Under the pieces are notes generated by a model. The model worked only from the letters and a program-made list of their open reading frames with translations, was not told where the DNA came from and did not search any database. From Bacilli bacterium (lineage in GTDB: Bacteria > Bacillota_I > Bacilli_A > RFN20 > CAG-826), in the NCBI GenBank assembly GCA_035647455.1, contig DASRNI010000002.1, positions 66,051-130,050 on the forward strand: 64,000 nucleotides of DNA, read 5' to 3'. The position numbers and the translations under genes were made by a program. Within the stretch, counting starts at the first letter, position 1. Every line of letters starts with the position of its first letter. Of this stretch, positions 47,197 to 64,000 are shown in pieces.

Positions 47197-48084
47197 ATGA
47201 AAGATTACATTATTAGTGCAGGAACAACTGCTGACTTAAGTTACGAACACTTTAAGCGTCGTAATATTAGTTATATTGATTTTTATTTTAATTTAGATGG
47301 CGTTGAGTACATTGATGACTTAGGGCGAACAATGTCGTTTAGTGATTTTTACAAAAAAATGGCTGAAGGCGCAATGTCGCGCACTTCGCAACCAAATACG
47401 GAACAATTCATCGCTTACTTTACCCCGTTTCTAGAAGCCGGGAAAGACGTCATTCACCTTTCACTTTCAAGTGCACTATCGGGTGAATTTAATAGTGCGC
47501 GGCTTGCGAAAGAAGAACTTGAAGAAAAGTATCCGGATCGTAAAATTTTTATCATCGACTCTAAAGCAGCGTCAGGTGGTTTCGGTCTTTTAGTCGATAA
47601 ACTCGCCGATCTTCGTGACGAAGGGATGGATATCACAAAACTTGCCGCTTGGACCGAACAAAATAAACTCCGGCTTAACCACTGGTTTTACACTACCGAC
47701 TTAAAGTACTTTGTGCGTGGTGGTCGGCTCACGAAGTTAAGTGGCTTTATGGGCAACTTACTTAATATTAATCCGCTCCTTCATGTTAATGAACTCGGTG
47801 AACTAATTCCGAAGTACAAAGTTGTTGGGCAACGCCGGGTGCAAATTAAAACACTCGACCTTGTCCGTGAACTTGCTGACGGTGGTTTAGAGTACGCTGA
47901 TAAAGTGTATATTAACCACGCCGAAATGCTTAGTGATGCGTTAAGTTTAGAACGAACAATTAAAAACCGTTTTAAAAATGTTACAGAAATTGTCATTAAT
48001 TACATTGGCACAACAATCGGCGCGCACACCGGACCAGGAACGGTCGCAATCTTCTTCTGGGGGAAAGCGCGCGATGAAAATTAA
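47197..48084 (+). CDS. DegV family fatty-acid-binding protein
   Basis: 295 aa with DegV-like sequence (SRTSQPN, FIIDSKAASGGFG). The RBS is AAAGGAG. Confidence 0.88.
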   Translation: MKDYIISAGTTADLSYEHFKRRNISYIDFYFNLDGVEYIDDLGRTMSFSDFYKKMAEGAMSRTSQPNTEQFIAYFTPFLEAGKDVIHLSLSSALSGEFNSARLAKEELEEKYPDRKIFIIDSKAASGGFGLLVDKLADLRDEGMDITKLAAWTEQNKLRLNHWFYTTDLKYFVRGGRLTKLSGFMGNLLNINPLLHVNELGELIPKYKVVGQRRVQIKTLDLVRELADGGLEYADKVYINHAEMLSDALSLERTIKNRFKNVTEIVINYIGTTIGAHTGPGTVAIFFWGKARDEN

Positions 48085-48640
48085 ATTTGCCAAAGTTATT
48101 CGTTTTATTTCGATTCCGCCGTTTGTCATTTCCTTATTAGCGCTGATTTTAAGCTTAACAAAAATGATTACGTGGCTAGAAGCACTATATGCCATTACTT
48201 TTTTAGGGGCAATAAGTCTTCTTGCTTATCCTTTTGCCGCGCTTATTGATAAAAACAAAGAAACACGGCGCAAAACAATGCGAAAGATGGCGTTTGTCTT
48301 TACGTTTATTGGTTATACCGCTGGTTTTATCTTTTCGCTCTTAATGCCATTAAGTGACGTTGCTAACTTGATCTTTCAAGCGTACTTTATTAGTGCAATC
48401 TTTCTTTTAATTACAAACGGAATTTTTAAATTTAAAGCAAGTGGCCATATGACAAGCATCACTGGTCCGCTCGTAATTCTGGCATTTTATTTACCAACTT
48501 ATGTGATAATTCCGTGTTTAATCTTTTACGTTCTCGTTTATTGGGCGTCGCTCATTTTAAAGCGCCATACACGCCTTGAAATGATTTTTGGGACAGTTAT
48601 TGTTTTCTTTGCATTTTTTGCCGTGCAGTTATTAGTCTAA
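48074..48640 (+). CDS. Polytopic membrane protein, function unknown
   Basis: About 188 aa with 5-6 hydrophobic segments. Start is ATG 48074, overlapping degV by 11 nt. The track start at 47978 lies inside degV. Confidence 0.6.
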   Translation: MKIKFAKVIRFISIPPFVISLLALILSLTKMITWLEALYAITFLGAISLLAYPFAALIDKNKETRRKTMRKMAFVFTFIGYTAGFIFSLLMPLSDVANLIFQAYFISAIFLLITNGIFKFKASGHMTSITGPLVILAFYLPTYVIIPCLIFYVLVYWASLILKRHTRLEMIFGTVIVFFAFFAVQLLV

Positions 48641-48699
48641 AATTACGGTAAAAATCACTATAATTTATGCTAAAATAAAAGTAACTAAGGTTACTTCTT

Positions 48700-49161
48700 A
48701 TGAAAAATAAACGCACAAAGAAACGTTATTATTTAATTACTTGTAAATTTGGCCATGTTGGTCGCGATAAATATTTACCGCTTGTCGTTCCCGTTAAGGC
48801 ACGGGACGCTAAAGAAGCAAGTGACTGTGCGCGCAACGTTGGCGGGGTCAAGAAAAACCATAAAGATTGGTGTTTAGAAGAACCGCGTGAAGTCGATGAA
48901 GCGACTTTTTCCGCAGCGTTAGAAGCGTTTCGTAATGATCCGTACTGGGATAAAAAGACGCGGTCGAATAAAAAGCTTTTTCGTGACCGACTCGTTGATG
49001 AGCCGAACTATACGCGTCACCGCGGGATTAAAACAAATACGGTGACCTTTAAAAAACCGACAAGTCGGCAAATTAAAAGTTATCACCGAAAGCGCAGTAA
49101 AGTGCGGCGTGAAGAATATGAAAACATTATTCGTGATAACGAAGAGTATGACGAATATTAA
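48700..49161 (+). CDS. Highly basic hypothetical protein with an acidic tail
   Basis: 153 aa, Lys/Arg-rich (KRTKKRYY..., HRKRSKVRRE), ending in EEYDEY. No family recognised. Confidence 0.55.
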   Translation: MKNKRTKKRYYLITCKFGHVGRDKYLPLVVPVKARDAKEASDCARNVGGVKKNHKDWCLEEPREVDEATFSAALEAFRNDPYWDKKTRSNKKLFRDRLVDEPNYTRHRGIKTNTVTFKKPTSRQIKSYHRKRSKVRREEYENIIRDNEEYDEY

Positions 49162-49171
49162 AGTTTAAAAA

Positions 49172-51925: not shown

Positions 51926-52075
51926 AATCCGTACTCCTAACCTCATTATAATCTTTTTTAATTAATAATATAATTAAATGACTGCAAAAAGATCAAATTT
52001 CAAGCATCATTACCACGTATTTTTGAAAATAGGCATACAATGAAAGTGACAATACAGTCAGAAAGGAGCAATTAA

Positions 52076-52516
52076 ATGGCTGAAAAAATTAATTTATTCA
52101 AAGAAGCACCAAACGCAATGAAAGTGATGTTAGCGATGGAAAAATATTTACACGAAGAAACAACGCTTGAACCATTGTTACTTGAACTCATTAAAACACG
52201 CGTTTCGCAAATTAATGGTTGTGCTTACTGTTTAGATATGCATGTTAAAGATGCGCTTAAACTTGGTGAAAGTGCGCAGAGAATATACTTACTCCCAGCA
52301 TGGCGTGAAACAAGTCTTTTTACACCAAAAGAAAAGCTTGTGCTTGAACTTGCCGAGCGGGTTACACTCATAAGTGACTATGAAATCGACGGGGAACTTG
52401 AAAGTCTTTTACTTAAAGAGTTCACGAAAAAAGAGTACGTCGATCTTTTAATCGCAATTGCGCAAATTAACTCATGGAATCGACTTAATATCAGTGTGCA
52501 CGCTGACGTACGTTAA
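52076..52516 (+). CDS. Carboxymuconolactone decarboxylase / AhpD-like peroxidase family protein
   Basis: 146 aa with the CxxC in context INGCAYCLDMH, typical of AhpD-like proteins. Confidence 0.8.
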   Translation: MAEKINLFKEAPNAMKVMLAMEKYLHEETTLEPLLLELIKTRVSQINGCAYCLDMHVKDALKLGESAQRIYLLPAWRETSLFTPKEKLVLELAERVTLISDYEIDGELESLLLKEFTKKEYVDLLIAIAQINSWNRLNISVHADVR

Positions 52517-52545
52517 GTAAATAAATTAACTTATTAATAGTGAAG

Positions 52546-52569
52546 GAAGAGGATGCCCTCTTCTTTTTT
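52546..52569 (+). terminator. Rho-independent terminator after the AhpD-like gene
   Basis: Stem GAAGAGG/CCTCTTC with a 4-nt loop, followed by a T6 run. Confidence 0.7.
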
Positions 52570-52689
52570 ATTTAGTAAATTATCGTCATAACTAAAATAA
52601 GCTAACATTTCCCCATTTTTATTTAAAAGAACGCCTAATAAATGGTAAAATTGTATATGAATAATAAGTACAGAAAGTGAAAAAGCAGC

Positions 52690-53790
52690 ATGTTAATTAA
52701 AATGATTCATCTTAGTGACAATCATATTGGCGCCGTTTTAGAAAGCTCCTCGTACGCGAGTGAATTTGCTTTAAGACGGCAACGGGAAATTGTCAGCACC
52801 TTAATGAAAGCGCTTGATTACGCAAACGCCGAAAACGTGCATTATATTTTACTTTCCGGTGACCTTTTTGATCGCGGGAAAATTAAGACAAGCACAATAG
52901 CAAGTGTCATAAGAAAATTCAGTGAATTTAACGGCACGGTGCTCTTAATTGCTGGTAATCACGATTACATTAGTGAAGAGTCCCTATGGGCAAACGCCAC
53001 CTTACCAGAAAACGTCTATTTATTTCCCGCAGGGCTAACCCAAAAAGCGTTCCCCGAACATAATGTTGTTTTTTATGGTCATTCGTGGGACAAGGCAGCG
53101 ATTAAAACCGAAGAACTAGCGAAAATGCCCGCGCTCGACACGGCTAAAATTAATATTTTACTCGCCCATGGTGATATATATAGTAAAAATCACAGTTACT
53201 TACCAATTGATAAAAATAATTTAGTTAAAGCGGGTTTTGATTATGTCGCATTAGGCCATATTCATAAACATGACTTTATTACAAAAAATATTGCATACGC
53301 TGGTTCATTAGAACCACTTAATTTTGGTGAAACTGGCGCCCATGGTTTTATTTCGTTAGAGTTTAAAAATAAAAAGCTCCAAACAACATTTATACCGTTT
53401 GCGGCGCGCGAGTTCGTCATTAAAGAAATTACTTTAAATAGTGCGATGAGTGATAATGATCTTGATGCCATAATTCTTAACATAGCAACAAGCACGGAAA
53501 AGGCGCAAAACTTTTACCGTGTTATTTTCCGCGGTCGCTATAATTATCAATTAAATTTAAATAAGGCCGACTTACATACACTTTATAAAGATGAATTCGC
53601 TTATATTGAATTCGTTAATAACGCAACTGTTGATTTTGACCTTAAGACACTCCGCGAACAAAACAAAGACAATGTTATTGGTTTATATATTAAGAAGTTT
53701 GATGAAATGGACACAGAAGACGAAGTAATTAAGACGGCCTTTTACAAAGGGCTTGAATTACTCCTTGATAGTAAGGAGGGTCTCCTATGA
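52690..53790 (+). CDS. Metallophosphoesterase, SbcD/Mre11-like nuclease (YhaO/SbcF-like)
   Basis: HLSDNHIG, GDLFD, GNHD and GHIH calcineurin-like motifs. It overlaps the downstream ATPase gene by 4 nt. Confidence 0.8.
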   Translation: MLIKMIHLSDNHIGAVLESSSYASEFALRRQREIVSTLMKALDYANAENVHYILLSGDLFDRGKIKTSTIASVIRKFSEFNGTVLLIAGNHDYISEESLWANATLPENVYLFPAGLTQKAFPEHNVVFYGHSWDKAAIKTEELAKMPALDTAKINILLAHGDIYSKNHSYLPIDKNNLVKAGFDYVALGHIHKHDFITKNIAYAGSLEPLNFGETGAHGFISLEFKNKKLQTTFIPFAAREFVIKEITLNSAMSDNDLDAIILNIATSTEKAQNFYRVIFRGRYNYQLNLNKADLHTLYKDEFAYIEFVNNATVDFDLKTLREQNKDNVIGLYIKKFDEMDTEDEVIKTAFYKGLELLLDSKEGLL

Positions 53791-56450
53791 AAATTAATGA
53801 ATTAAGACTCACGTCGTTTGGTAAATTTCAAAATAAAACGCTCAAGTTTAATGAAGGTATTAATATCGTTTACGGTCTTAATGAAGCGGGTAAAAGCACA
53901 ATTCATAAGTTTATTGAAGGAATGATTTTTGGTTTTTTCCGTCCAGACATTCGCACGCGACGTCAGCTTGATGAACATGAACAATACAATCCGCGCGGTG
54001 CTGACCGCTACGCTGGGAGTATGATTATTACGTATAAAGGCCGCAAATTACTCATTGAACGTAACTTCACTTGGGGTAGCGGGTCACTAAAAATTTTTGA
54101 TAACGTAACTGGTGAAGACATTAGCGCTACGCTCCCCTTTAATAGCACAACAAGACTCCCCGACTTAGCCGCGTATTTAGAAATTGATTACACGCTTTAC
54201 AATGACACAATCTCGGTGAGTCAAATGCAAAGCGAAACTTCAAGCAACCTTGCTGATGTTGTTGTTGAAAAAATTAGTAATTTAACAACTTCAAAAACCG
54301 AAACAATTTCTGTTCCTAATGTGCTTAATAAAGTTGAAGAAGAACGGCGAAAGATTGGTTCGAAAAATGCAATCACTCAACCGTATGCACTTGCCCTTGC
54401 CAAAAAACAAAGGTTAAACACGGAACTAGAAACATCAAACACGAAATACACCGAAATTCAAAGTCATCAAGCGGCCTTAAAAAGTTTGAACGACGAAAAA
54501 GCTATTGTTGAAAAAAAGATCAATACATTAATCGCCCAAAAAGAACTTTATAAAAATGAGCAGCTTAAAGAGCAATATAAAGTTATTAAAGCTTTAGATG
54601 ACGAAAAGAATGACTTAACCGTGAAGGCAAGTGAGCTTGCTAAATTTGCTAAAGCGAATGAAGAAGACTATCAAAAAGCATTATTAATTAATCAACAAAA
54701 AGAAAGTGCAACTACGCTATTAACAGAAAAAGCAGCGGAAAAAGCAGCGTTAACCGCCAAAAACGCGGCACTAGAAACAAAACTTAATCTTTATCCTTAT
54801 TTACAAACTAACGAAGTTACTTTACTCGACTTAAACACGATGTATAGTGCGTATAACTTGAGTAAAACGCAGTTAAATAGCTATAACGAAGAAACAAAAG
54901 CTCTTTCTGGTGCCGAAGTAACGCAAGAAGAACTTAAAGACTTAAGTAAAGATTATGCGGAATATAATGCAGTAAACGCTAAAAATTATGATCTCTTAAA
55001 ACGTAATGTCCAATATGATTTACGTTTTGAAGAAGAAAAACTTGTTCGGCTTGAAAGCGAATTACCAAGTCAAGGACTGAAGTACTTATATATTGCATTA
55101 ATCCCGCTACTTATTGGTATTTTCTTGTTACTAAATTTCCTAAACAAGATAAAAAGAGTCAAGCCACAAATTGCCAAGCAAACGACAAGAATTGCCGAAC
55201 TTCACGAAGAGTTAAAAGCTTTAGAAGAACAAGAAACTTCACAAAAAGTTTTTAATGAAAAGATGTACGTGAAATATAAAGTCCACACGCATGAACAATT
55301 AAGTTCATTATATTATCAAACTGGTGCGGGTAGTCGTGCGGCTAATAAAGCAAGACTTGAAAAACTCGAAACGCTCATTAGTGAAGAAAAAGTAAAGTTA
55401 GAAAAAATAAGTAATGAATTACTAGAAATTTTAAAGCAAGTTACGAGTAAAGTTACTATTACTGATCAAAACATCCAAGCATTGCAACTTATTGTTAGCG
55501 AATATGCGACAGTTAAAACAGATTTTAGTAGTAACAATAAAAAGCTTGAAGAAGTAACGCAAGAAATAACAGCAACTACAACAAAAAGCGCAGAACTTAC
55601 CAAAGAGTTAACCGCCCTTTACGAAGCAAATAACGTGAAAAGTTTAGAAGAGTTTCGCACTGCCCTAGCCCAAAAGAAATTGTATTTAGCTAAAGTTGCT
55701 AATATTAATAACTTAACCGCGCGTATGAATGACCAGTTAGCAGGATTAACGCTTGAAGAGTTCGTTGCTAAAATTGATTTCACAACGGCGGAGAAGTTTG
55801 ATCAAGCCGCGTACGAAGCACTTTTAAACGAAGAAAGTAATATTCGTCAGAAAGAATCAGAACTAACGAAACAAATAGCAACATACTACGAAGCAATTAG
55901 TCATTTAGAACGAAATCACCGTGAACCAAAGCTCATTGAAGCTGAAATTACCGCGGTCGATGAAGAACTAAGTGCTTATGACGTTGAACTAGCAGCGCTC
56001 CAGTTAATTAAAACAACGCTTGAAGAACTTGCCAGTACAATTAGATTCGAATTTGCGCCTGAGTTAAACAAAGCAATCTCGAAATCAGTCAAACGGATTA
56101 CAAACAACAAATATAATGTCGTTAAAGTTGATACAGCAATGAATGTTCTTGTGTATGAAGAAGACACACAAAGTGAAGTTAACATCAAAGGCTTTAGCAT
56201 GGGCACAATTGACCAAATCTACTTAGCGATGCGGCTCGGTATTAATGAAACAGTATCACCTAACACGCATCCATTAATTTTAGATGATACATTCGTTAAT
56301 TACGATTACATTCGACTTGAAGCAACACTGCGTATATTAAGTGGCGAAACAAAAGCAACAAGCCGACAAATCATTTTATTTACTTGTCACGACCGTGAGC
56401 AAAAAGTTTTAGAAGCACTAAAGGTTCCGTTTAAATTAAACAGCTTGTAA
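53787..56450 (+). CDS. SMC-like AAA ATPase with long coiled coil (YhaN/SbcE-like)
   Basis: N-terminal Walker A GLNEAGKST. The central region is extensively heptad-like and contains one hydrophobic helix (LYIALIPLLIGIFLLLNFL). The C-terminus has LILDDTFVNYD (Walker B/D-loop). Confidence 0.8.
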   Translation: MKINELRLTSFGKFQNKTLKFNEGINIVYGLNEAGKSTIHKFIEGMIFGFFRPDIRTRRQLDEHEQYNPRGADRYAGSMIITYKGRKLLIERNFTWGSGSLKIFDNVTGEDISATLPFNSTTRLPDLAAYLEIDYTLYNDTISVSQMQSETSSNLADVVVEKISNLTTSKTETISVPNVLNKVEEERRKIGSKNAITQPYALALAKKQRLNTELETSNTKYTEIQSHQAALKSLNDEKAIVEKKINTLIAQKELYKNEQLKEQYKVIKALDDEKNDLTVKASELAKFAKANEEDYQKALLINQQKESATTLLTEKAAEKAALTAKNAALETKLNLYPYLQTNEVTLLDLNTMYSAYNLSKTQLNSYNEETKALSGAEVTQEELKDLSKDYAEYNAVNAKNYDLLKRNVQYDLRFEEEKLVRLESELPSQGLKYLYIALIPLLIGIFLLLNFLNKIKRVKPQIAKQTTRIAELHEELKALEEQETSQKVFNEKMYVKYKVHTHEQLSSLYYQTGAGSRAANKARLEKLETLISEEKVKLEKISNELLEILKQVTSKVTITDQNIQALQLIVSEYATVKTDFSSNNKKLEEVTQEITATTTKSAELTKELTALYEANNVKSLEEFRTALAQKKLYLAKVANINNLTARMNDQLAGLTLEEFVAKIDFTTAEKFDQAAYEALLNEESNIRQKESELTKQIATYYEAISHLERNHREPKLIEAEITAVDEELSAYDVELAALQLIKTTLEELASTIRFEFAPELNKAISKSVKRITNNKYNVVKVDTAMNVLVYEEDTQSEVNIKGFSMGTIDQIYLAMRLGINETVSPNTHPLILDDTFVNYDYIRLEATLRILSGETKATSRQIILFTCHDREQKVLEALKVPFKLNSL

Positions 56451-56551
56451 AGTACGAATAAACAAAACGTTCATTAAAGTAACTTTGTTTAGTTATCAAC
56501 AACAGAACTTTTTGAGTTTGTAATAAATATATTATAAAAGAGAATTTTATT

Positions 56552-56807
56552 ATGAAAAACAAACGAATCTTTAAAGTTTTTTAACTTATTTTGGCTAGTA
56601 GCTTATTTCTTGGTGGATGTAAAAACAATTAATACTGCTGGCCGTTATGAGAATAGTCCGTCCACAACACTAATTAATAAAAGCATCGAAACAAATCCAG
56701 CGTCTTTTGACGTAATATTAAAGATAAAGATCGGCGAATTAGTCAAGATGAAGTGTACCCACCTTAAGCTAGATTATAAAACATGTCGAAATGAAGGGCT
56801 CCAATAA
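56552..56807 (+). pseudogene. Decayed lipoprotein gene with an in-frame TAA in the signal peptide and a frameshift at an A5 run
   Basis: ATG 56552 encodes MKNKRIFKVF-TAA(56582-56584)-LILASSLFLGGC. The remaining coding potential (track ORF 56610..56807) is in the next frame, joined at A5 56621-56625. Confidence 0.55.
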
Positions 56808-56819
56808 TTAATTACATAG

Positions 56820-56842
56820 GAAGCGGGAGCCCGCTTCTTTTT
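56820..56842 (+). terminator. Rho-independent terminator
   Basis: Stem GAAGCGG/CCGCTTC around a GAGC loop, followed by a T5 run. Confidence 0.7.
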
Positions 56843-57000
56843 CATCGTCAAATCTGCGTTACAATAAATATTATGAATTGTTTTTAATAATGTTAAAATT
56901 AATTAACAAGTAACAAGACTATTTTCGAAACAAGGCCTTTTTATGTGGATTTAATTGCACTAGCAATTTAATTAAATATACTAACCAAAAAGGAGAAAGT

Positions 57001-57483
57001 ATGAAAAAGATAAGATTATTATCGCTCGTGTTCGTTTTAGGCATTGTCCTAGCGAGTTGTTCCGGAAAGGGCGACAAAAGTTCCGATCCTTCTGGAAATA
57101 GTAATGGTAATAATGGAAGTGAAGTAACAAGCACACCAACTGATAACCGTGAACAAGTTAGTCGTCAAGGCTATGACCAATATTTTGATGATTTCGATCT
57201 CACGAATGAAGTTTCAACAAATCTCGGTGAAGGTGGTGCGACATGGAAAACTATCGATACTTATCTCGGTACTTATGAAGAAGGAACTTCCCCAGACATA
57301 GCGCGAAAAGCACTTGTTTTGCATAGCGGTGTTACCCCGTCTAGCGTCACAATTACATTTCCGAACGGACTTGAATACTTAGCGTTCCAAGCAAATGAAG
57401 TAAAACATATTAACCGTGAACGTGAGTATCGCTTTGATGTGACAAACAATGGCGAAACAAAACATATAATTTTTCAGACATGA
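57001..57483 (+). CDS. Lipoprotein, function unknown (possibly 3'-truncated by a frameshift)
   Basis: Lipobox VLASC followed by a Ser/Gly/Asn-rich linker. The RBS is AAAGGAGAAAG. Confidence 0.7.
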   Translation: MKKIRLLSLVFVLGIVLASCSGKGDKSSDPSGNSNGNNGSEVTSTPTDNREQVSRQGYDQYFDDFDLTNEVSTNLGEGGATWKTIDTYLGTYEEGTSPDIARKALVLHSGVTPSSVTITFPNGLEYLAFQANEVKHINREREYRFDVTNNGETKHIIFQT

Positions 57484-57644
57484 TGTTCATCTATGATAAA
57501 AGCGCTGATTATTATCATTATGTTGTGCAATCAGAGTGGGGTTCACTTGAAGGTGAAGTGATTGTTAAGCTTTATGTTGTTGGTGGCGCTAATCAAGATT
57601 TAGCACTCCACAGTTTTAATTGGATTAATTATATACTTGAATAG
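57480..57644 (+). CDS. 54-aa ORF overlapping the upstream stop (ATGA); either a coupled small gene or the displaced C-terminus of the lipoprotein
   Basis: It is absent from the track because it is under 60 aa. Translation: MMFIYDKSADYYHYVVQSEWGSLEGEVIVKLYVVGGANQDLALHSFNWINYILE. Confidence 0.35.
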   Translation: MMFIYDKSADYYHYVVQSEWGSLEGEVIVKLYVVGGANQDLALHSFNWINYILE

Positions 57645-57716
57645 CATTTGAATTATATTTTAAAAAAAAAGCAAAAAAATGACGTTTTAATTATACTGAA
57701 GTTAACGGAGGGAAAA

Positions 57717-58226
57717 ATGGGGATCCTTGATAAAATTAAAGCAAAAATTGGCAGTGCAATTGAAAAAAGCGCTGTTAGTCAAATGACGGATGAAGAAAAA
57801 ACGGCGTACAAAGCCGAACGCGAAGCATTGAAACCTGAAGTAGGGGGTGTTGAACTTTCACTCCAATATACGAAAGAAGAAGTAAAAGACTTAGAAAGCT
57901 TATTACTAAAGCTTGGCGCGATTGATAATAGAAAAGTATGGATTGGTGGTTTTCTAAAACAACGACAGAACACTAATGCCAAGTTTGCTAACATGTTTTC
58001 TGGTCATAAAAACTTGCGCTTCCTGACACTTAAAGACGATATCTTTTTTATGATTAAATTCGAAGGCGATAAAATTTATTCATACAAAGCATTTAAAAAA
58101 GAACACGTTGCAAGTGTTAGGAAGTCCCCGGTTTTCACCGTTGCTTTGTTTGAAAAAGTTACGATGCACCTTGAAGTAACAAAAAATAAACAAAAAGTTA
58201 ACGAGTTAGTTAGTCTTTTAAAATAA
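57717..58226 (+). CDS. Hypothetical cytoplasmic protein
   Basis: 169 aa starting at ATG 57717 behind an ACGGAGGG RBS. No family recognised. Confidence 0.6.
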   Translation: MGILDKIKAKIGSAIEKSAVSQMTDEEKTAYKAEREALKPEVGGVELSLQYTKEEVKDLESLLLKLGAIDNRKVWIGGFLKQRQNTNAKFANMFSGHKNLRFLTLKDDIFFMIKFEGDKIYSYKAFKKEHVASVRKSPVFTVALFEKVTMHLEVTKNKQKVNELVSLLK

Positions 58227-58392
58227 GTAATAATTGACCGAATATCCGCGTTTAAAGCAGTAAATTCGTTGTTTTGTGTTTTGATGAACTTTTCTTGTTC
58301 CGCTATTTTGGTAAAACATATAAAACGCAATTATCAAAACCATTAACATTAAACGTGTCTAAATTTAAAAATATGTTAATATGTATTTACAC

Positions 58393-58467
58393 GCCGACGT
58401 GGCTCAACGGTAGAGCAACTGAATCGTAATCAGTAGGTTGCGGGTTCAACTCCTGTCGTCGGCACCA
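58393..58467 (+). tRNA. tRNA-Thr (anticodon CGT)
   Basis: Acceptor GCCGACG/CGTCGGC, D arm GCTC-AACGGTA-GAGC, anticodon stem ACTGA/TCAGT with loop ATCGTAA, T loop TTCAACT, and an encoded CCA. Confidence 0.92.
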
Positions 58468-58513
58468 TGAAAATCTTTGTTTAGTGGTAAATAACCACGA
58501 AAAGAAGCATATT

Positions 58514-58541
58514 GGCACCTAAATTGGGTGCCTTTTGTTTT
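58514..58541 (+). terminator. Rho-independent terminator after tRNA-Thr
   Basis: Stem GGCACC/GGTGCC with a 7-nt loop, followed by TTTTGTTTT. Confidence 0.7.
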
Positions 58542-58572
58542 ATTTGCCCCCGTTTCTAATTTTAAAACGCTC

Positions 58573-58657
58573 GAACCCCCACCCCCTAAAAAAGTCATTA
58601 TAGGAAGTTGAACCCCAAAACTTACTTCATTCCATGTCTATTGATGGAACCCCAAAA
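58573..58657. repeat. C-tract cluster with an 11-nt direct repeat GAACCCCAAAA (58610-58620 and 58647-58657) and a related GAACCCCC (58573-58580)
   Basis: Read directly from the sequence. It sits between the tRNA-Thr terminator and the 3' end of the first recombinase gene. Confidence 0.5.
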
Positions 58658-60125
58658 AATAAACATAAACAGAGTAACTAACAAGTTCATAAAATTTTGT
58701 AAATGCATAGGTTGTTTCGTGAATAATATTATTACTATCTAAAGCAAGCGAATCGTCGTTTGTTACATTAAGTTTCAAATGAAATGCATTTTCTTTTACG
58801 ATGACTTTACTAAAGATAACGCGTAGTTCATTAATATCGTAATCACGATTAACAGTAAGTAGCATGCGGATCTTATTTAGTTTCTGAAGTGCCTTTAGGT
58901 CACCGAGGCGAGTTACAAGAAACGTCTCCTCGCTTAAGTAATGATCATTGCTAATTCGTTCATTTAAGGCGGATATTGTCTCAAGAACAAGCAGAAGTAA
59001 GTTACTCCGTATTTCGTTAAGCACGAAGTTTAATAAGTTTATGATCACAACTGTTTGAAACCCAAGTCGACTTACTTTGCCTTTAATCCCCGGGCAGTAT
59101 ATGGTTGGAATTACGCTTGTTACGTTCCCCGCCTTGCCTTTTGGCTTTTCTAAGGAATAACGGAAATAACGGTTATGCGCTGTTGAGTAGACAAACTTAG
59201 CGTACGCTGACCATTTCTTTGTCCCATCCTTGGAAACATGATCATGGCGCGATTTACGTAATGCTTGAGCTTTAAGAAACGTCTCTTTACTAATAATTGA
59301 TGCGTGATTATTTTCAATTAAGTAAACATCCGCTAAACCATGCTTATTAACCGTTTTAACGCCTTTCTTAGTAAAGTACTTACCGAGAATCATATCACCA
59401 GTATATTTCTCATTTTGGAGCATTCCTTCAAGTGTCGCTCGTGACCAGTAGTCGTTACCTTTCCTGGTTTTAATGTTATTTTTATGTAAGTAATTAATAA
59501 TTTCTTGGTACGTCTTTTTTGCTAAATAAAGTTCATAAACTTTACGAACAACAGCGGCTTCATCTTCAATAATAATAAATTTTTTATTAATTATCTTATA
59601 ACCATACAGTTGGCTTGTTAAATTGTCACCTTGGCGTTTTCGTTTATTAATTGACCAATGATTATTTTCGGCAATGTTATTACTTTCTTCTTCAGCGTGA
59701 CTTGCTAGAAGTGAGAAGAGAAAATCAAACGAATCGTCAAGCGAAGAAATATTTTCTTTTTGAAAGTAGATTTCAACATTAAGTAACCGTAATTCACGCA
59801 CAACATTAATTGTTTCAACGAGGTTACGGCCGAAGCGCGAAATTGATTTTGTAATGATCACATCGATTTCTTTCGCTCTTGCTAGTTCGAGCATTGTTGT
59901 AAAGTTTTTTCGCTCTTTTAGGGCACTCCCTGAAGCTTTGTCTTTAAAGACTCCAAGGAAGATGTAGTTATCATTACTTTTAATAAACGCTGTTAATTCT
60001 TCGATTTGTAAAGCGTACGATGTTTCTTGTAACTCTTTATCGGTTGATACTCGAGCGTAGCCAACCGCACGCTTTTTAAGGGCACTAGTTGGCGCGAGAG
60101 CTTTAATCACACTAACGCTATGCAT
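58638..60125 (-). CDS. Large serine recombinase (downstream member of the pair; no Cys4 zinc ribbon)
   Basis: VGYARVSTD contains the catalytic Ser, and ITKSISRFGRN is present. It is about 495 aa from ATG 60125, which overlaps the upstream gene's stop in ATGCATAG. The C-terminal half has only one Cys. Confidence 0.88.
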   Translation of the reverse strand: MHSVSVIKALAPTSALKKRAVGYARVSTDKELQETSYALQIEELTAFIKSNDNYIFLGVFKDKASGSALKERKNFTTMLELARAKEIDVIITKSISRFGRNLVETINVVRELRLLNVEIYFQKENISSLDDSFDFLFSLLASHAEEESNNIAENNHWSINKRKRQGDNLTSQLYGYKIINKKFIIIEDEAAVVRKVYELYLAKKTYQEIINYLHKNNIKTRKGNDYWSRATLEGMLQNEKYTGDMILGKYFTKKGVKTVNKHGLADVYLIENNHASIISKETFLKAQALRKSRHDHVSKDGTKKWSAYAKFVYSTAHNRYFRYSLEKPKGKAGNVTSVIPTIYCPGIKGKVSRLGFQTVVIINLLNFVLNEIRSNLLLLVLETISALNERISNDHYLSEETFLVTRLGDLKALQKLNKIRMLLTVNRDYDINELRVIFSKVIVKENAFHLKLNVTNDDSLALDSNNIIHETTYAFTKFYELVSYSVYVYFLGFHQ

Positions 60126-61719
60126 AAAGCACAACCTCAAAGAAAATGCCTCGGCGTTCATCTTCGGCAAGATGCATTTTACTAAATAGTGGTGGTGCGT
60201 TTAAAAGTGTTTCGGTGTTTTCTAAAAGTTCATCTAAAGTTTGCCGTGGGGCAATTATAAAGCGGATTTTCTTGTCAGTCGCAAAGATTAATGAGTATAC
60301 GTCTTTAAACTTAATTGTTTCAGTGTTTAGCGTAGCGTTTGCTAGTGACTTTAAATAAGCAAGTTTTACGAGACTAGAAGTCTCAATGCTTATTTGTTTG
60401 GAAATCTCTTTAAGCTTTGTTTCGTGCTCTTTAATTTCGGAAACGATCTTTTCGTCATGCTTATCGTTTAAAGTTTGGTGGAGCCTAGCTATTGCTTGTT
60501 GCACCGTTTCTTGCTCTTCCCGTAACTTTTCTAAGTAGTCTTCGTTATTAAATGTCGCAATTACTTGTGTGAGTTTATTTTCGTCACGCAGTAAAGTTTG
60601 TAGCGCTTCAAACGCTGCGCCATACACTAAGTCGTAAAGAGGTGAAGTTGCGTCACAATTAAAAGTGTTATGGTACGAATGGTTACAATTTAAAACAACA
60701 TAAGTTGCTGTGCCACTTTTTAAGTGTTGGCGTTTAAGTGTCCGTTTGCACTTTGGACAGTAAAGTATTCCTGTTAACGGATACTTGCTTGTTTTGTTTA
60801 ATGGTGTTTTTGTTTTCTTGCGACTATTTAAAATCGCTTGGACACTATTAAAAAGTTCGCGAGTAATAATGCCTTCATGATTATTTGAAACGTAATACTT
60901 ATCGACGATATTATCGTTTGGCACAACTTTCTTTGTTAAATAGTCAATACAGACGGTTTTACGTAGTAAAGCATCCCCACAGTACTTTTCGTTTTGCAGT
61001 ATATGGCGCACCGTTCCGTACTTAAAAGTTGAACCTTTTAATGTTAAGTGGCCTTCTTCATTTAGTGTTTTAACGATGTCGTTAATGTTGTAACCTATCA
61101 GCGCTAGATTAAAGATTTCTTTAATTACTTTTGCCTGTGGTTCATTAATGGAATATTTCCCGTCAATTACGTCGTAACCATAAAGTGGCCGTGGATCAAC
61201 GATGCCGTTCCGCGCTTTTTTCTCGATTGCCCATTTCACATTTGCGGAAATTGACCGTGATTCTTCTTGGGCAATACTTGAAAGAATTGTGAGCATGAAA
61301 TCAATCTTTGGATCAAGCGAAGAAATGTTTTCTTTTTCAAAGAAGATTTCAACGTTAAGTTCACGAATATACGTAATTACGTCAACTGTATTTCGACCAA
61401 AGCGTGAAATCGACTTTGTAAGAATTAAATCAATTTCTCCGTTGCGCGCAGCTTCAATCATTTTCATAAACTCAGGTCGTTTCTTTGCTTGGGTTCCTGA
61501 AAGTCCTTGGTCAGCGAAAAGTCCCGCATAGATATAATGGGGATTACTTGTAATCCGTGTTGTATATTCATCGCACTGTACTTTGTAGGAGTTTAATTGA
61601 TCAGCGTAATCAGTTGAGACTCTAGCGTAAGCAGCGACTTTTCGTTTCCTAACTTCGGGATTAGCAAAAGTAGAAGTTGTCGCTTCAATTTTTGTAATCA
61701 CCTTTTTGCTGTTATTCAT
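60118..61719 (-). CDS. Large serine recombinase (upstream member; with zinc ribbon)
   Basis: AAYARVSTD and LTKSISRFGRN motifs, with a recombinase domain. The zinc ribbon reads CPKCKRTLKR...NCNHSYHNTFNC. The RBS GGAGAG precedes ATG 61719. Confidence 0.9.
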   Translation of the reverse strand: MNNSKKVITKIEATTSTFANPEVRKRKVAAYARVSTDYADQLNSYKVQCDEYTTRITSNPHYIYAGLFADQGLSGTQAKKRPEFMKMIEAARNGEIDLILTKSISRFGRNTVDVITYIRELNVEIFFEKENISSLDPKIDFMLTILSSIAQEESRSISANVKWAIEKKARNGIVDPRPLYGYDVIDGKYSINEPQAKVIKEIFNLALIGYNINDIVKTLNEEGHLTLKGSTFKYGTVRHILQNEKYCGDALLRKTVCIDYLTKKVVPNDNIVDKYYVSNNHEGIITRELFNSVQAILNSRKKTKTPLNKTSKYPLTGILYCPKCKRTLKRQHLKSGTATYVVLNCNHSYHNTFNCDATSPLYDLVYGAAFEALQTLLRDENKLTQVIATFNNEDYLEKLREEQETVQQAIARLHQTLNDKHDEKIVSEIKEHETKLKEISKQISIETSSLVKLAYLKSLANATLNTETIKFKDVYSLIFATDKKIRFIIAPRQTLDELLENTETLLNAPPLFSKMHLAEDERRGIFFEVVLYA

Positions 61720-61941
61720 TTGCTTACTCTCCGTTCAGTCTTAATTCGCTTCTAAGATTAGTCGTCGTTTTTGTTTTAGCATAGTTCTTTCTTTATGCAA
61801 GTTATTAGTGCTTTTCCGTCCTTTTCTTTCATCTTATTTGCATTGTAACAAACAATTAATTGCCGTATGGGTTGGCTAAGAGCATACAAATGCAATTAAA
61901 ACTAAACTACTAAAAATGTCTGAGCAACAATAAAACTAAAT

Positions 61942-61982
61942 GCGTGGAAAATGTCCACACAAAAGTCCACGCAATTGTCCAC
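61942..61982. repeat. Three GTCCAC motifs phased at 12 bp, plus inverted repeat GCGTGGA(61942-61948)/TCCACGC(61966-61972)
   Basis: GTCCAC at 61953, 61965 and 61977, read directly from the sequence. Confidence 0.6.
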
Positions 61983-61991
61983 CCAGAATCA

Positions 61992-62051
61992 AGATATAAG
62001 AGTATAGAGATAAGATATAAGAGTATAGAGTAAAGATACTAGAGAAGATAT
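61992..62051. repeat. Direct repeats with 21-bp period: an exact 19-mer AAGATATAAGAGTATAGAG occurs twice (61992, 62013), and AAGATA cores recur at 62034 and 62046
   Basis: Read directly from the sequence. The repeats lie in the intergenic region between the recombinase operon and the methyltransferase gene. Confidence 0.7.
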
Positions 62052-62204
62052 TATCGATATTTCCGATTGTAACGATAGAATCACTTTTTCAAAGTTTCTG
62101 ATATTTCTTTTAAATAAACAACCGTAATAATAATTGCCAACGAAAAGCTGGGCTGAGTTAAAGTTTTGTACTATTATTTTTACGTTGTTAAGTGGAAAAG
62201 TTCA

Positions 62205-62233
62205 TTGATAGGTAGGGGTAAAAATGATATAAT
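62205..62233 (+). promoter_or_regulatory. Near-consensus promoter TTGATA-17 nt-TATAAT with TGn extended -10, driving the methyltransferase gene
   Basis: Hexamers at 62205-62210 and 62228-62233, with TG at 62225-62226. It lies 44 nt before ATG 62278, whose RBS is AAAGGGTGG. Confidence 0.65.
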
Positions 62234-62277
62234 TATTAAAAGAAAATAGTAATGCATAGTTAAGAAAGGGTGGATTT

Positions 62278-64000
62278 ATGAGTCTACGTGAATTATTTAA
62301 AAGTAAAATTGACAAAATAGCAAAAGAATCGTTCAATAACGAACAAAAAATTTTAGCGAAAAAGATTATTGAATCAGTTGAAGATGGATTAGTTGAGAGC
62401 GCCTACCAATTAATTTCTCAAAGGGTGAAAACGGGATTTGTTTTTGATTCAGCACCAGAAATTAATCATAATGCCATAAGTCTAGTTATGGAAAACGAAG
62501 AAATGTTTATAAATTCACCCAAGAAAGCTATAGATTATATTGAACACACACTAATAATTGGTGAAAATTATGATGCATTAAAAAACTTGTTAGTAACACA
62601 CGTTGATACAACAACAAATATGGGGTTAATCGACTTGATATACATAGATCCACCTTACGGCACTGAAAACGCCAAAAATGAGGGGAATGATTATAAAGAA
62701 GAAATAAAAAGTGAAAAGTTTATTTATAGAGATAAGTATACTAGAGATGGTTGGCTTAATTTATTAAATGAAAGATTAAAATTATCAAAAAAACTTTTAA
62801 AAGATGATGGAATGATTTTTATATCTATTGATAACAAAAACCAAGCCTATCTTAAAGTTTTGCTAGACGAGATATTTGGAGAAAACAATTTTTTAGGAAA
62901 CATATCTGTTGTAAACAACTTAAAAGGAAGATCAGATGATGAATTTTTTGCAACCTCTAGTGAGTATTTGTTAGTTTATGCTAAAAACAAAGCGCAAGTT
63001 AAAATCAAAGGCACATCTTTGACGGATGAAGAAATAGAAGCTGAATATGACAAAGAGGACGATCACGGACTATATAAATGGGTTGGGTTGAGAAAAACAG
63101 GAAAAGGGTGGCAAAGAGAAGCACGGCCATTTATGTACTATCCACTTCTAAAAAAAGATGGTGAATTTTATGCAATTACTGATGACGAATATAATAACAT
63201 TTATTTAAAAGAAACCCAAGTATTCAATGATAAATTTGTTGAGATGTTGGAACGAAAATATACCAAACTCGGTTTTGAGTTTTTCCTACCGATAGATTTG
63301 GACAACAATAAAGGCAGGTGGAGGTGGGGGTTTGACACCTACAAACGAGAAATGAAGAAGAATGTTGAATGCAACACTGCTAACACTCCTTCATCAAAAA
63401 TGAGAAGCAGTTTGGAAAATGGTGTGGAAAGACTTAAATCACATAAGACCACATGGTACAAGTCAGAGTATGATACAGGAAGTGCCGGTCTTCAACTAGA
63501 CAAAATTTTAGATACAAAAGGAATTTTCGATAACCCTAAATCCGTTGTTTTTATGAAAGATATTCTAGAATTGATTGATAAAAAAGAAGCAATTATTCTG
63601 GATTTTTTTGCTGGTTCAGGTACCACCGGGCAAGCAGTAATGGAATTGAATTTAGAAGATGGTGGAAAGAGAAAGTTTATTTTGATCACGAATAATGAAA
63701 ATAATATTGGGAAAGAAATAACTAGGGAAAGAATCTATAGAAACATTAATGGTCAAGGAAGCAAACAACAAAAAATAAAGTGGAAATACAGTAATGAGAT
63801 GAAATCCTTTATCAACAACGTGGTGAGGGTTTTTGAAATAGAACAATATGATTTGACGATTGATGACACGGAAAAAGCATATGAGTTGCTCAAAAAAGCA
63901 GAAGAACAATTTAAACTCCTAAATGAAAATTACTCGCCAAAGTCTAAATTAGACATTTATAATGAATTATCTAGTTTAAATCCGATAGTGAAGGTAAAGT
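62278..64000 (+). CDS. Beta-class N6-adenine DNA methyltransferase, Type III Mod-like (3' end beyond the window)
   Basis: The ORF is open from ATG 62278 to the window edge (574 codons) and is not in the supplied track. Motif IV DPPY lies at 62647-62658 and motif I FFAGSGTT at 63604-63627. The order IV...TRD...I is typical of Type III Mod proteins. Confidence 0.85.
   Translation, partial: MSLRELFKSKIDKIAKESFNNEQKILAKKIIESVEDGLVESAYQLISQRVKTGFVFDSAPEINHNAISLVMENEEMFINSPKKAIDYIEHTLIIGENYDALKNLLVTHVDTTTNMGLIDLIYIDPPYGTENAKNEGNDYKEEIKSEKFIYRDKYTRDGWLNLLNERLKLSKKLLKDDGMIFISIDNKNQAYLKVLLDEIFGENNFLGNISVVNNLKGRSDDEFFATSSEYLLVYAKNKAQVKIKGTSLTDEEIEAEYDKEDDHGLYKWVGLRKTGKGWQREARPFMYYPLLKKDGEFYAITDDEYNNIYLKETQVFNDKFVEMLERKYTKLGFEFFLPIDLDNNKGRWRWGFDTYKREMKKNVECNTANTPSSKMRSSLENGVERLKSHKTTWYKSEYDTGSAGLQLDKILDTKGIFDNPKSVVFMKDILELIDKKEAIILDFFAGSGTTGQAVMELNLEDGGKRKFILITNNENNIGKEITRERIYRNINGQGSKQQKIKWKYSNEMKSFINNVVRVFEIEQYDLTIDDTEKAYELLKKAEEQFKLLNENYSPKSKLDIYNELSSLNPIVKVK

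What the first reader, a model, noticed from the sequence alone, without database searches (positions are those of the whole stretch)
58468..64000. Putative integrated element next to tRNA-Thr(CGU) with a two-recombinase module and defence-type cargo running off the window
**Seen in sequence:**
- tRNA-Thr ends at 58467 and has its own terminator (58514-58541).
- Two minus-strand large serine recombinase genes follow immediately, both with YARVST and SISRFGRN motifs.
- Next comes a 558-bp non-coding region packed with phased repeats.
- A near-consensus promoter then drives a Mod-like N6-adenine methyltransferase, which continues past base 64000.
- The backbone to the left is ordinary chromosomal content.

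**Inference:** this is the left end of a mobile island or prophage-like element. Its cargo, which could be a restriction-modification system or something less standard, lies mostly outside the window. If an undescribed system is associated with this window, this is the most likely place for it. The partner genes cannot be seen here.
Basis: partly seen in the sequence, partly recalled or inferred. Interest (0 to 1): 0.72.

Follow-up and report, generated by a model that had tools for sequence, protein, structure and literature searches.

The report
Serine-recombinase defence island at tRNA end
This is the left end of a mobile genomic island, inserted exactly at the CCA end of a tRNA gene by a pair of large serine recombinases; it carries an ordinary Type III restriction system plus two uncharacterised genes, and near-identical copies of the recombinase module sit behind three other tRNA or tmRNA genes with different anti-phage cargo.

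Summary
tRNA-Thr(CGT) ends at 58467. Two overlapping large serine recombinase (LSR) genes follow on the minus strand, then a 558-bp repeat-rich spacer, an 11/12 promoter and a Mod methyltransferase.

A 100%-identical metagenomic contig extends the window to about 70.7 kb. The cargo is an intact Type III R-M (Mod 574 aa, Res 757 aa), a 193-aa protein and a 761-aa metallophosphoesterase-domain protein, both uncharacterised, and a 325-aa lipoprotein. All have low GC.

The interpretation as an integrated mobile element is supported:
- The LSR module is 92-95% identical in other genomes whose chromosomal flanks are about 71-75% identical or unrelated.
- It abuts four different RNA genes: tRNA-Thr, tRNA-Leu(CAA), an unidentified tRNA and tmRNA. 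The junction is always NCCA|TGAAAATC.
- Relatives have an LSR-free tRNA-Thr site.
- The cargo differs each time: Type I or III R-M, HEC-05/GmrSD, Lamassu, Mokosh-like.

Across the wider family, 21 of 38 loci have a convergent tRNA 154-211 nt after the second recombinase. That recombinase always lacks the zinc-ribbon CxxC.

The closest analogue is SCC/CcrAB, but these genes are not Ccr orthologues. The right end was not found.

Verdict: new variant of a known kind, moderately interesting.

The parts
58393..58467 (+). tRNA-Thr(CGT), the chromosomal target (attB side). It is intact, with an encoded CCA.
   Evidence: ARAGORN and Rfam. The gene order 169-aa gene then tRNA-Thr is conserved in LSR-free relatives L171 and L172.
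58464..58475 (.). Left junction (attL), ...GGCA CCA|TGAAAATC. The crossover is inferred to lie within or at the NCCA end.
   Evidence: Identity with L174 (tRNA-Leu), L155 (another tRNA) and L176 (tmRNA) starts exactly at the shared CCA. LSR-free sites read CACCA|GTGAATTT (L171/L172) and CACCA|AATAAGC (the window's own tRNA-Leu). In the 46% subfamily, the forms read as attP diverge from integrated forms at the tRNA-Trp terminus.
58468..58637 (.). Element-borne 170-nt spacer. It holds a hairpin at 58482-58498, a terminator facing the tRNA at 58514-58541, and two T(T/G)GAACCCCAAAA repeats at 58608-58620 and 58645-58657 (the second overlaps the end of rec1).
   Evidence: It is 96-100% identical behind four different RNA genes. 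The architecture and length (154-211 nt) are conserved across the family. Terminator scan.
58638..60125 (-). rec1, the second gene of the pair. It is a large serine recombinase without zinc-ribbon cysteines.
   Evidence: Pfam PF00239 3.3e-31 and PF07508 6e-25, with no PF13408. It is 41% identical to rec2 over 331 aligned columns, with YSTAHNR where rec2 has YCPKCKR. None of the 14 rec1-type proteins has CxxC.
60118..61719 (-). rec2, the first gene of the pair. It is a canonical large serine recombinase with a zinc ribbon, and it overlaps rec1 by 8 nt.
   Evidence: Pfam PF00239, PF07508 and PF13408 (25.9 bits against a cut-off of 25.3). PHROG 95 integrase 4e-122. CxxC at about residue 315 in all rec2-type proteins.
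61720..62105 (.). Conserved rec2-upstream region: promoter and leader, a hairpin at 61941-61961, and phased repeats (12-nt, 21-nt and ATCG arrays). Its right edge is the point where cargo differs between elements.
   Evidence: Homology with L155 ends at 62114, with L174 at 62095 and with L021 at 62093. TRF.
62106..62277 (+). Cargo-specific leader with the mod promoter (62205-62233).
   Evidence: It is not shared with L155, L174 or L021. Promoter scan matches 11 of 12 positions with TG. GC is 27.9%.
62278..64000 (+). mod, a Type III beta-class N6-adenine methyltransferase (574 aa). Its stop codon is at 64000-64002 and overlaps the res start.
   Evidence: PF01555 7.8e-31. PADLOC MTase_III 3.8e-69. 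DPPY precedes FxGxG in the translation. Res follows in L001.

Best explanation
Window 58468-64000 is the left 5.5 kb of an integrated, horizontally mobile genomic island of at least 12.2 kb. It was inserted at the CCA 3' terminus of tRNA-Thr(CGT) by site-specific recombination.

**The recombinase pair**
- The recombination is catalysed by two co-transcribed, translationally coupled large serine recombinases.
- rec2 is canonical and has a zinc ribbon. rec1 is a paralogue that has lost the zinc-ribbon cysteines.
- Inferred: the two act together as a hetero-oligomer, as CcrA and CcrB do, on an attP at the element's tRNA-proximal end and on an attB formed by the T-arm, acceptor and CCA end of a tRNA-like gene.
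- Inferred: the 2-bp crossover lies inside NCCA, so the RNA gene stays intact.
- The element brings its own terminator, which stops tRNA read-through.

**The cargo**
- Next to the recombinase module is an exchangeable slot (window 62106 to extended coordinate 69383).
- Here the slot holds an intact Type III R-M operon (mod-res), a 193-aa gene, and a 761-aa gene with an active-looking metallophosphoesterase domain.
- A conserved lipoprotein module follows the slot.
- Sister elements carry other anti-phage systems in the same slot.

**Shown**
- The anatomy, the domain content and the intact Type III R-M.
- Horizontal transfer of the module and four different RNA-gene targets.
- The position of the junction, the LSR-free sites and the turnover of the cargo.

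**Inferred**
- That both recombinases are needed, and the exact crossover dinucleotide.
- Current ability to excise.
- A defence role for the two unknown genes.
For: **Anatomy**

**Extension and cargo**
- Contig L001 is 100% identical over window 58930-64000 and continues to 70712.
- Res matches PADLOC REase_III at 3.5e-87 over residues 1-700.
- Its translation shows a Walker A motif (APTGSGKT), DEAH, and a C-terminal D...ESK motif.

**Horizontal transfer**
- L017 is 93.7% identical over 58359-61793, but its flanks are only 71-75% identical.

**Multi-target junctions**
- The module follows tRNA-Leu(CAA) in L174, another tRNA in L155, and tmRNA in L176-L180 (Rfam RF00023, E 4e-16).
- All of them join at CCA|TG(A/G)AAATCTTTG.
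- The acceptor stem of the L174 tRNA-Leu is intact.

**Unoccupied sites**
- L171 and L172 have tRNA-Thr without the module.
- The window's own tRNA-Leu(CAA) is also unoccupied.

**Family-wide pattern**
- In 21 of 38 loci a convergent tRNA lies 154-211 nt after the rec1 stop.
- 11 tRNA species are involved.
- Forms read as attP diverge exactly at the tRNA-Trp terminus.

**Cargo turnover at a fixed boundary**
- The adjacent cargo is defence-related:
  - Type I R-M (L021, L022).
  - Lamassu LmuA (L021).
  - Mokosh MkoA-like (L024, L031).
  - HEC-05/GmrSD (L155).

**The lipoprotein travels with the module**
- It is 98.3% identical in L155, where the module sits at a different tRNA.

**Composition**
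- The cargo is 31-34% GC against 37.5 +/- 1.7% for the chromosome.
Against: - The right end (attR) was not found. No att-like repeat or inverted repeat was detected, so the element's size and completeness are unknown.
- No excised or circular form, and no empty site in the same species, was recovered for this subfamily. Metagenome contigs break inside the module, probably because several variants co-occur.
- The LSR-free tRNA-Thr site comes from a relative only 62% identical in the flanking protein. Its downstream genes are rearranged, so it is not a clean empty site.
- Some family members have a disrupted rec1 (L021, L031), which shows that such islands can become fixed remnants.
- Joint action of the two recombinases rests on analogy only.
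Confidence: 0.8

Rival explanations
1. Only the 3.6-kb recombinase module (58468 to about 62105) is the mobile unit, a minimal self-inserting element. On this reading the defence genes to its right belong to a separate chromosomal or independently evolving hotspot next to tRNA genes.
For: - Elements with 90-95% identical modules share nothing else.
- Their homology always stops at the same point, 374-395 bp upstream of rec2.
- No backbone genes are shared: no excisionase, replication or regulator genes.
Against: - The lipoprotein module (98.3% identical) is linked to the module at two different tRNAs, in the window and in L155, so more than the module moves.
- The adjacent DNA is always low-GC defence cargo.
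- No P-arm-like inverted repeat lies at the boundary (all p > 0.05).
- More distant family members are clearly large elements of 27-51 kb.
Confidence: 0.1
2. The visible part is the integration and accessory end of a complete or decaying prophage or phage satellite. Its structural and replication genes lie beyond 70.7 kb.
For: - Both recombinases match PHROG 95 integrase.
- 41-55% relatives sit at the ends of IMG/VR viral contigs of 27-51 kb. There they lie next to a CI-like repressor, a cro-like gene and a DnaD-like replisome organiser.
- The best annotated hits are prophages with two LSR genes, the Streptococcus Javan phages and Erysipelothrix phi1605.
Against: - None of the five genes in the 8.4 kb from res through the lipoprotein has a PHROG hit, and mod is identified only as a methyltransferase.
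- The close clade (57% identity or more) lacks the repressor and replication backbone, and has defence genes directly next to rec2.
- The exact DNA of the element's left end is absent from IMG/VR.
Confidence: 0.12
3. The recombinases are domesticated and do not move anything. They might invert or switch the repeat-rich region to control expression of the restriction system, or they might be inactive relics.
For: - A conserved array of phased repeats lies between the recombinase operon and mod.
- Serine recombinases next to defence genes have been proposed to act as invertases (PMC13552941).
- Some relatives have a broken rec1.
Against: - Both genes are full-length large serine recombinases, not small invertases.
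- No inverted repeats flank the spacer or mod.
- The module is found at four different RNA genes in different hosts, which requires movement.
- The repeat region is replaced by two genes in one 92%-identical variant.
Confidence: 0.03

Closest known systems
SCC / SCCmec elements of staphylococci with CcrA-CcrB (tandem defence-carrying cassettes: Hossain et al. 2024, PMC11470126)
   Same: - Two adjacent, co-oriented large serine recombinase genes are the only constant genes.
- Integration is at the 3' end of a conserved housekeeping gene and does not inactivate it.
- The cargo is highly variable and enriched in anti-phage systems, including R-M.
- No phage or conjugation backbone is visible.
   Different: - They are not Ccr orthologues. 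NCBIfam CcrB scores are 99 and 122 bits against a cut-off of 900, and CcrA scores are 87 and 63 against 700.
- The target is the CCA end of tRNA or tmRNA genes, and at least four different ones for a single module, not rlmH.
- The recombinase pair sits at the extreme end of the element, not in the middle.
- No flanking direct repeats of the ISS type were found.
tRNA/tmRNA-targeting genomic islands and prophages with tyrosine integrases
   Same: - Insertion is at the 3' end of tRNA and tmRNA genes.
- The recombinase gene lies next to the junction.
- The RNA gene is preserved.
- The cargo consists of accessory or defence genes.
   Different: - The recombinases are serine-type, not tyrosine-type.
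- No duplicated tRNA 3' segment flanks the island.
- The IME review PMC5704250 describes tRNA 3' ends as tyrosine-integrase targets, and describes serine-recombinase IMEs as integrating within genes.
Phage large serine integrases (phiC31, Bxb1, A118 type) and prophages with two LSR genes (Streptococcus Javan phages, Erysipelothrix phi1605)
   Same: - rec2 has the same domain architecture.
- The recombinase lies next to the att site.
- Distant members of the same family are prophage integrases.
   Different: - Identity is only 36-40%.
- There is an obligate-looking partner that lacks the zinc-ribbon cysteines.
- The target is RNA-gene ends.
- In the close clade the cargo is defence genes, with no phage genes seen.
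Type III restriction-modification systems (EcoP15I type)
   Same: - mod precedes and overlaps res.
- Mod is a beta-class N6-adenine methyltransferase.
- Res combines an SF2 helicase with a PD-ExK-like motif.
- PADLOC matches are strong (3.8e-69 and 3.5e-87).
   Different: - Nothing unusual was detected.
- No simple-sequence repeats suggest phase variation.
- The recognition sequence is unknown.

Membership tests
Large serine recombinase | N-terminal resolvase catalytic domain with the serine nucleophile | tested here: met
   PF00239 scores 3.3e-31 for rec1 and 3.8e-29 for rec2. Both carry YARVST.
Large serine recombinase | Recombinase domain (PF07508) after the catalytic domain | tested here: met
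   6e-25 for rec1 and 1.5e-21 for rec2.
Large serine recombinase | Zinc-ribbon domain with cysteine ligands | tested here: met
   Met for rec2: PF13408 scores 25.9 bits against a cut-off of 25.3, and CxxC is present. Not met for rec1: no PF13408 hit, and the cysteines are replaced. None of the 14 rec1-type proteins has CxxC.
SCC element / CcrAB | The recombinases are CcrA and CcrB equivalogs | tested here: not met
   NCBIfam scores are 99 and 122 bits against 900 for CcrB, and 87 and 63 bits against 700 for CcrA.
SCC element / CcrAB | Integration at the 3' end of rlmH (orfX) | tested here: not met
   The junction is at the CCA end of tRNA-Thr. Sister copies sit at tRNA-Leu, another tRNA and tmRNA.
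SCC element / CcrAB | Flanking direct repeats (integration site sequences) | tested here: inconclusive
   None was found up to 70.7 kb, but the right end has not been reached.
SCC element / CcrAB | A pair of LSR genes with variable cargo and no transfer backbone | tested here: met
   
Type III restriction-modification system | Mod: N6-adenine methyltransferase of the Type III kind | tested here: met
   PADLOC MTase_III 3.8e-69 and PF01555 7.8e-31. DPPY precedes FxGxG.
Type III restriction-modification system | Res: helicase-nuclease subunit encoded directly downstream | tested here: met
   PADLOC REase_III 3.5e-87 over residues 1-700 and PF04851 1.7e-16. The mod stop overlaps the res start. 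Res lies just outside the window, in L001.
Type III restriction-modification system | Restriction and methylation activity | not testable with these tools
   This needs methylome data or a phage challenge.
Tyrosine-integrase tRNA island | Tyrosine recombinase next to the junction | tested here: not met
   Both adjacent genes are serine recombinases.
Tyrosine-integrase tRNA island | Direct repeat of the tRNA 3' segment at the far end | tested here: not met
   No repeat of 12 nt or more lies within 12 kb here, or within 10 kb in 25 related loci apart from chance 12-mers.
Prophage | Structural, packaging or lysis genes | tested here: inconclusive
   There are no PHROG hits other than the integrases among the res-to-lipoprotein genes. 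The rest of the element is unseen.

The most novel reading that the evidence does not exclude
The window belongs to an undescribed clade of paired large serine recombinases: a canonical enzyme plus a zinc-ribbon-less partner. Its attB would be the generic T-arm, acceptor and CCA end of tRNA-like genes.
- One module can therefore insert behind many different tRNA and tmRNA genes without damaging them.
- The pair anchors SCC-like islands whose defence cargo is swapped at a fixed point about 390 bp upstream of the recombinase operon.
- This would be a serine-recombinase counterpart of tRNA-targeting tyrosine integrases, and a ready-made family of integrases with a universal, conserved landing site.
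Probability: 0.45. Interest if true: 0.72.

Novelty: new variant of a known kind. Interest (0 to 1): 0.58.

Why it matters
- **Target:** serine integrases are generally described as inserting inside protein-coding genes, while tRNA ends are the textbook target of tyrosine integrases.
  - The IME review PMC5704250 states this.
  - The LSR atlas PMC10083194 does not mention tRNA at all.
  - An LSR pair that lands precisely on the CCA end of several tRNA and tmRNA genes would extend the known target range of this enzyme class.
  - It would also offer integrases with a conserved, ubiquitous landing site.
- **Defence mobility:** it would give a second, independent example, outside staphylococcal SCC, of two-recombinase islands that shuttle interchangeable anti-phage systems. 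These occur in poorly studied Bacilli, Acholeplasma-like and Erysipelotrichales lineages.
- **The cargo in this window:** the Type III R-M is ordinary. The 193-aa and 761-aa genes are candidate defence genes by position only.

Tried and rejected
1. **Second copy of the left junction or of the tRNA 3' end.** I searched to the right of the recombinases, up to 70.7 kb, and found only chance 8-19-mers. The same search in 25 related loci also found nothing.
2. **Terminal inverted repeat** between the tRNA-proximal end and the boundary upstream of rec2. A similarity I saw by eye (CACT..CAAAG..TTTC) is at chance level in 18 loci (all p >= 0.075), so I dropped it.
3. **Shared att-like motif** at the slot boundaries, the 88-bp repeats and the region after the lipoprotein. 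None was found.
4. **Empty site in the same species.**
   - Logan contigs coming from the left stop at 58556-58569, and island contigs stop inside rec1.
   - The likely cause is that several 93-95% identical module variants co-occur, not that an empty allele exists.
5. **Genome collection scan with SbcD.** It returned only two Vallitalea MAGs at 40-42% identity, so the host species is not among the representatives.
6. **Metagenome scan for the exact tRNA-Thr sequence.** 0 hits.
7. **IMG/VR scans** for the element's left-end DNA and for the 761-aa protein. 0 hits.
8. **The 761-aa and 193-aa proteins.** They have no PADLOC, PHROG or NCBIfam family. The 761-aa protein also has no PDB match and no tblastn match in phages or plasmids.
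9. **Rfam on the extension.** No RNA family was found, including over the 88-bp repeats.
10. **Structure prediction of rec1.** I did not attempt it. Only a single-sequence model would have been allowed, and the loss of the cysteines is already visible in the alignment.

Full report
**1. Observation**

- tRNA-Thr(CGT) occupies 58393-58467.
- A hairpin followed by a T-run lies at 58514-58541 on the + strand.
- Two minus-strand genes follow: rec1 at 58638-60125 and rec2 at 60118-61719.
- Both have the Resolvase (PF00239) and Recombinase (PF07508) domains and the YARVST and SISRFGRN motifs. Only rec2 reaches the zinc-ribbon model.
- The genes overlap by 8 nt (ATGCATAG), which suggests translational coupling.
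- They are 41% identical over the first 330 or so residues. Where rec2 has YCPKCKR, rec1 has YSTAHNR.
- The 558 bp from 61720 to 62277 hold no ORF of 50 aa or more. They contain a 12-nt repeat, a 21-nt repeat and ATCG units spaced 9-10 nt apart.
- A TTGATA-17-TATAAT promoter with an extended TG lies at 62205-62233.
- It precedes a Mod-type methyltransferase gene that starts at 62278.

There is one correction: Mod is 574 aa, and only its stop codon lies beyond base 64000.

**2. What lies beyond the window**

An exact-protein look-up of rec2 returned a metagenomic contig, L001. It is 100% identical to window 58930-64000 and continues to the equivalent of position 70712. Its genes are as follows.
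- **res** (757 aa) has a start that overlaps the mod stop.
  - PADLOC REase_III matches at 3.5e-87 over residues 1-700, and PF04851 also matches.
  - The translation shows Walker A, DEAH and a C-terminal D...ESK motif.
  - With mod, this makes a complete and unremarkable Type III R-M operon.
- **A 193-aa protein** has no family match.
- **A 761-aa protein** has a C-terminal 240 residues that match Metallophos (PF00149).
  - Read by eye, these residues keep the DxH, GDxxDN, GNHD and GHxH motifs.
  - It has no match in PADLOC, PHROGs, NCBIfam, PDB, or the phage and plasmid collections.
  - The gene is bracketed by an 88-bp direct repeat, 87.5% identical.
- **A 325-aa lipoprotein** has an Ig-like domain and is followed by a strong terminator.

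All of these genes have 31-34% GC. The chromosome is 37.5 +/- 1.7%, and no chromosomal 1.5-kb window falls below 34.1%. The recombinase genes are chromosome-like at 36-37%.

**3. Evidence that the region is mobile**

*(a) The module moved between species.*
- Contig L017 carries the same tRNA-Thr, spacer, rec1 and rec2 at 93.7% identity. The spacer alone is 96-100% identical.
- Its chromosomal flank is only 71-75% identical and only partly syntenic.

*(b) The same module sits behind four different RNA genes.* The module is 92-95% identical in each case. The targets are:
- tRNA-Thr(CGT), in the window and in L017.
- tRNA-Leu(CAA) next to ZnuABC genes, in L174. The acceptor stem of this tRNA is intact.
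- An unidentified tRNA ending ...GGTTCGACTCCTATACGGTCCACCA, in L155 and L156.
- tmRNA, in L176-L180 (Rfam RF00023, 47.5 bits, E 4e-16).

The junction is always NCCA|TG(A/G)AAATCTTTGTTTAGTGG.

*(c) Unoccupied sites exist.*
- In relatives L171 and L172, the homologue of the 169-aa flank gene is followed by tRNA-Thr(CGT) and then by unrelated DNA, CACCA|GTGAATTT.
- The window's own tRNA-Leu(CAA) is also unoccupied, CACCA|AATAAGC.

**4. The wider family**

Scans with a rec2 alignment gave 133 loci.
- The rec2-then-rec1 overlapping pair recurs down to about 41% identity.
- 38 loci have 270 nt or more after the rec1 stop. In 21 of them a tRNA gene lies on the opposite strand, 154-211 nt from the stop.
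- 11 tRNA species are involved. By my rough estimate of tRNA density, chance would give a few percent at most.
- The spacer architecture is conserved: two short direct repeats at the stop codon, then hairpins, then ...AAGAT(N5-6)|TGG.
- In the 46% subfamily, three contigs read as attP forms (L048, L056, L149). They share the spacer up to TTTGGCA and then continue CCATCTATG.... Integrated copies continue into tRNA-Trp instead.
- The crossover therefore lies at the very 3' end of the RNA gene. For the window's clade, the only sequence common to all four targets and the element is (A)CCA. The 2-bp crossover is therefore inferred to lie inside it.
- No duplicated tRNA fragment flanks these elements, as expected for serine recombinases.
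- rec2-type proteins always carry CxxC at about residue 315. rec1-type proteins never do, in 0 of 14 cases.

**5. Cargo and structure of the island**

- L155 shares two segments with the window: the recombinase module (93.6% identical, ending at 62114) and the 88-bp repeat plus lipoprotein plus terminator (98.3% identical, 69384-70707).
- Between these segments L155 carries four different genes, including a HEC-05/GmrSD-type enzyme. After the lipoprotein it carries a Type I R-M.
- In L155 the module sits at a different tRNA, so the lipoprotein segment must travel with the element.
- In the 70% subfamily, L021-L024 share only the module, at about 90% identity. The boundary lies 387 bp upstream of rec2.
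- Their neighbours are:
  - Type I R-M plus Lamassu LmuA (L021).
  - Type I R-M with three hsdS genes (L022).
  - An IS3 element plus a Mokosh MkoA-like three-gene set (L024, and L031 without the IS).
- More distant members (57% identity or less) instead have a backbone next to rec2. It consists of a CI-like repressor, a cro-like gene, a tyrosine-recombinase-like gene, a methyltransferase and a DnaD-like gene.
- These distant members lie at the ends of viral contigs of 27-51 kb.
- The close clade thus looks like a backbone-poor, defence-carrying derivative of a phage-like lineage.

**6. Mechanism proposed**

- The pair is inferred to work together, as CcrA and CcrB do. Both keep the catalytic serine, but only rec2 keeps the zinc ribbon that canonical LSRs use for site recognition.
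- The attB is inferred to be the T-arm, acceptor and CCA end of a tRNA-like gene. That would explain why one module can use several RNA genes.
- Integration leaves the RNA gene intact, and the element supplies a terminator.
- Cargo is exchanged at a fixed point about 390 bp upstream of rec2, by an unknown route.
- I found no inverted repeat or shared core at that point.

**7. Comparison with known systems**

- The closest analogue is SCC/SCCmec with CcrAB, including its tandem defence cassettes (PMC11470126). These proteins are not Ccr equivalogs, however, and the target is different.
- The target choice resembles that of tyrosine-integrase islands.
- The IME review PMC5704250 assigns tRNA 3' ends to tyrosine integrases and within-gene sites to serine recombinases.
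- The LSR atlas PMC10083194 never mentions tRNA.
- My four literature searches found no description of paired LSRs that target tRNA or tmRNA ends. That is absence of evidence in this library only.

**8. Limits**

- The right end, the element's size and its present activity are unknown.
- No junction reads were available.
- The LSR-free tRNA-Thr site comes from a fairly distant relative.
- The host is an uncultured 'Bacilli bacterium' MAG with no close genome among the species representatives.

**9. Verdict**

- The finding is real and its interpretation is essentially right.
- The cargo visible from this window is a standard Type III R-M plus two unknown genes.
- The more interesting result is at family level: a two-serine-recombinase module that lands on tRNA and tmRNA CCA ends and carries interchangeable defence systems.
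- I rate it a new variant of a known kind, with interest 0.58.

Noticed in passing
L001 1236-1323 and 3654-3741 (extended window coordinates 69390-69477 and 66972-67059): An 88-bp direct repeat (87.5% identical) brackets the 761-aa metallophosphoesterase gene. L155 has a single copy, upstream of the lipoprotein. This looks like the footprint of a single-crossover insertion of that gene cassette. Rfam finds no RNA family there.
   Followed up: partly
window 61941-62075: Three arrays of phased repeats lie upstream of rec2: GTCCAC at a 12-nt period including a hairpin, a 21-nt unit x2.3, and ATCG at a 9-10-nt period. They are conserved in the 70%-identity subfamily but replaced by 98-aa and 218-aa genes in a 92%-identical variant (L176). 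Their function is unknown.
   Followed up: partly
L001 1329-3614 (-) and 3818-4399 (-): The 761-aa protein has an N-terminal 500 aa with no match and a C-terminal calcineurin-like phosphoesterase with all catalytic motifs. The 193-aa protein has no match in any library searched. Both are candidate defence genes by position only.
   Followed up: partly
L022 33-3666: A Type I R-M next to the recombinase pair has three hsdS-like genes in both orientations, plus a 239-aa ORF. This may be a phase-variable specificity shufflon.
   Followed up: no
L056 8325-8349 and 9431-9455: Two direct copies of the putative attP P-arm (CCATCTATGTAGAGAAAATACGCAT) lie 1.1 kb apart, downstream of the recombinase pair. 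This may be a tandem site or a small cassette.
   Followed up: no
L024 279-8031 and L031 1587-9296: A conserved three-gene set lies next to the recombinase pair in two hosts: a helicase of about 1500 aa with AAA_11 and AAA_12 domains that matches Mokosh MkoA, plus proteins of about 720 aa and 358 aa with no PADLOC hit.
   Followed up: no
L159 and L160-L166: A 73%-identical homologue of the lipoprotein is preceded by a ParB-methyltransferase fusion and a SAM synthetase. All eight other contigs that carry it break within about 340 bp on either side. The lipoprotein therefore behaves as a conserved anchor between two hypervariable slots.
   Followed up: partly
window 52690-56450: An SbcD-like gene (366 aa) and an SbcC-like gene (887 aa) lie just left of the island. 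They are absent from the syntenic region of the related species in L017, where a DegV gene takes their place.
   Followed up: no
L171 1963-7418 versus window 45038-58467: In the relative, tRNA-Thr(CGT) and tRNA-Leu(CAA)-AlaDH are convergent and 4 kb apart, with an IS and a RelB-Fic pair between them. In the window they point the same way and are 12 kb apart. This indicates a rearrangement with breakpoints at tRNA genes.
   Followed up: no
L176 1502-1594 (-): A SAM riboswitch (Rfam RF00162, 47.7 bits) lies in the cargo region of the tmRNA-inserted variant.
   Followed up: no
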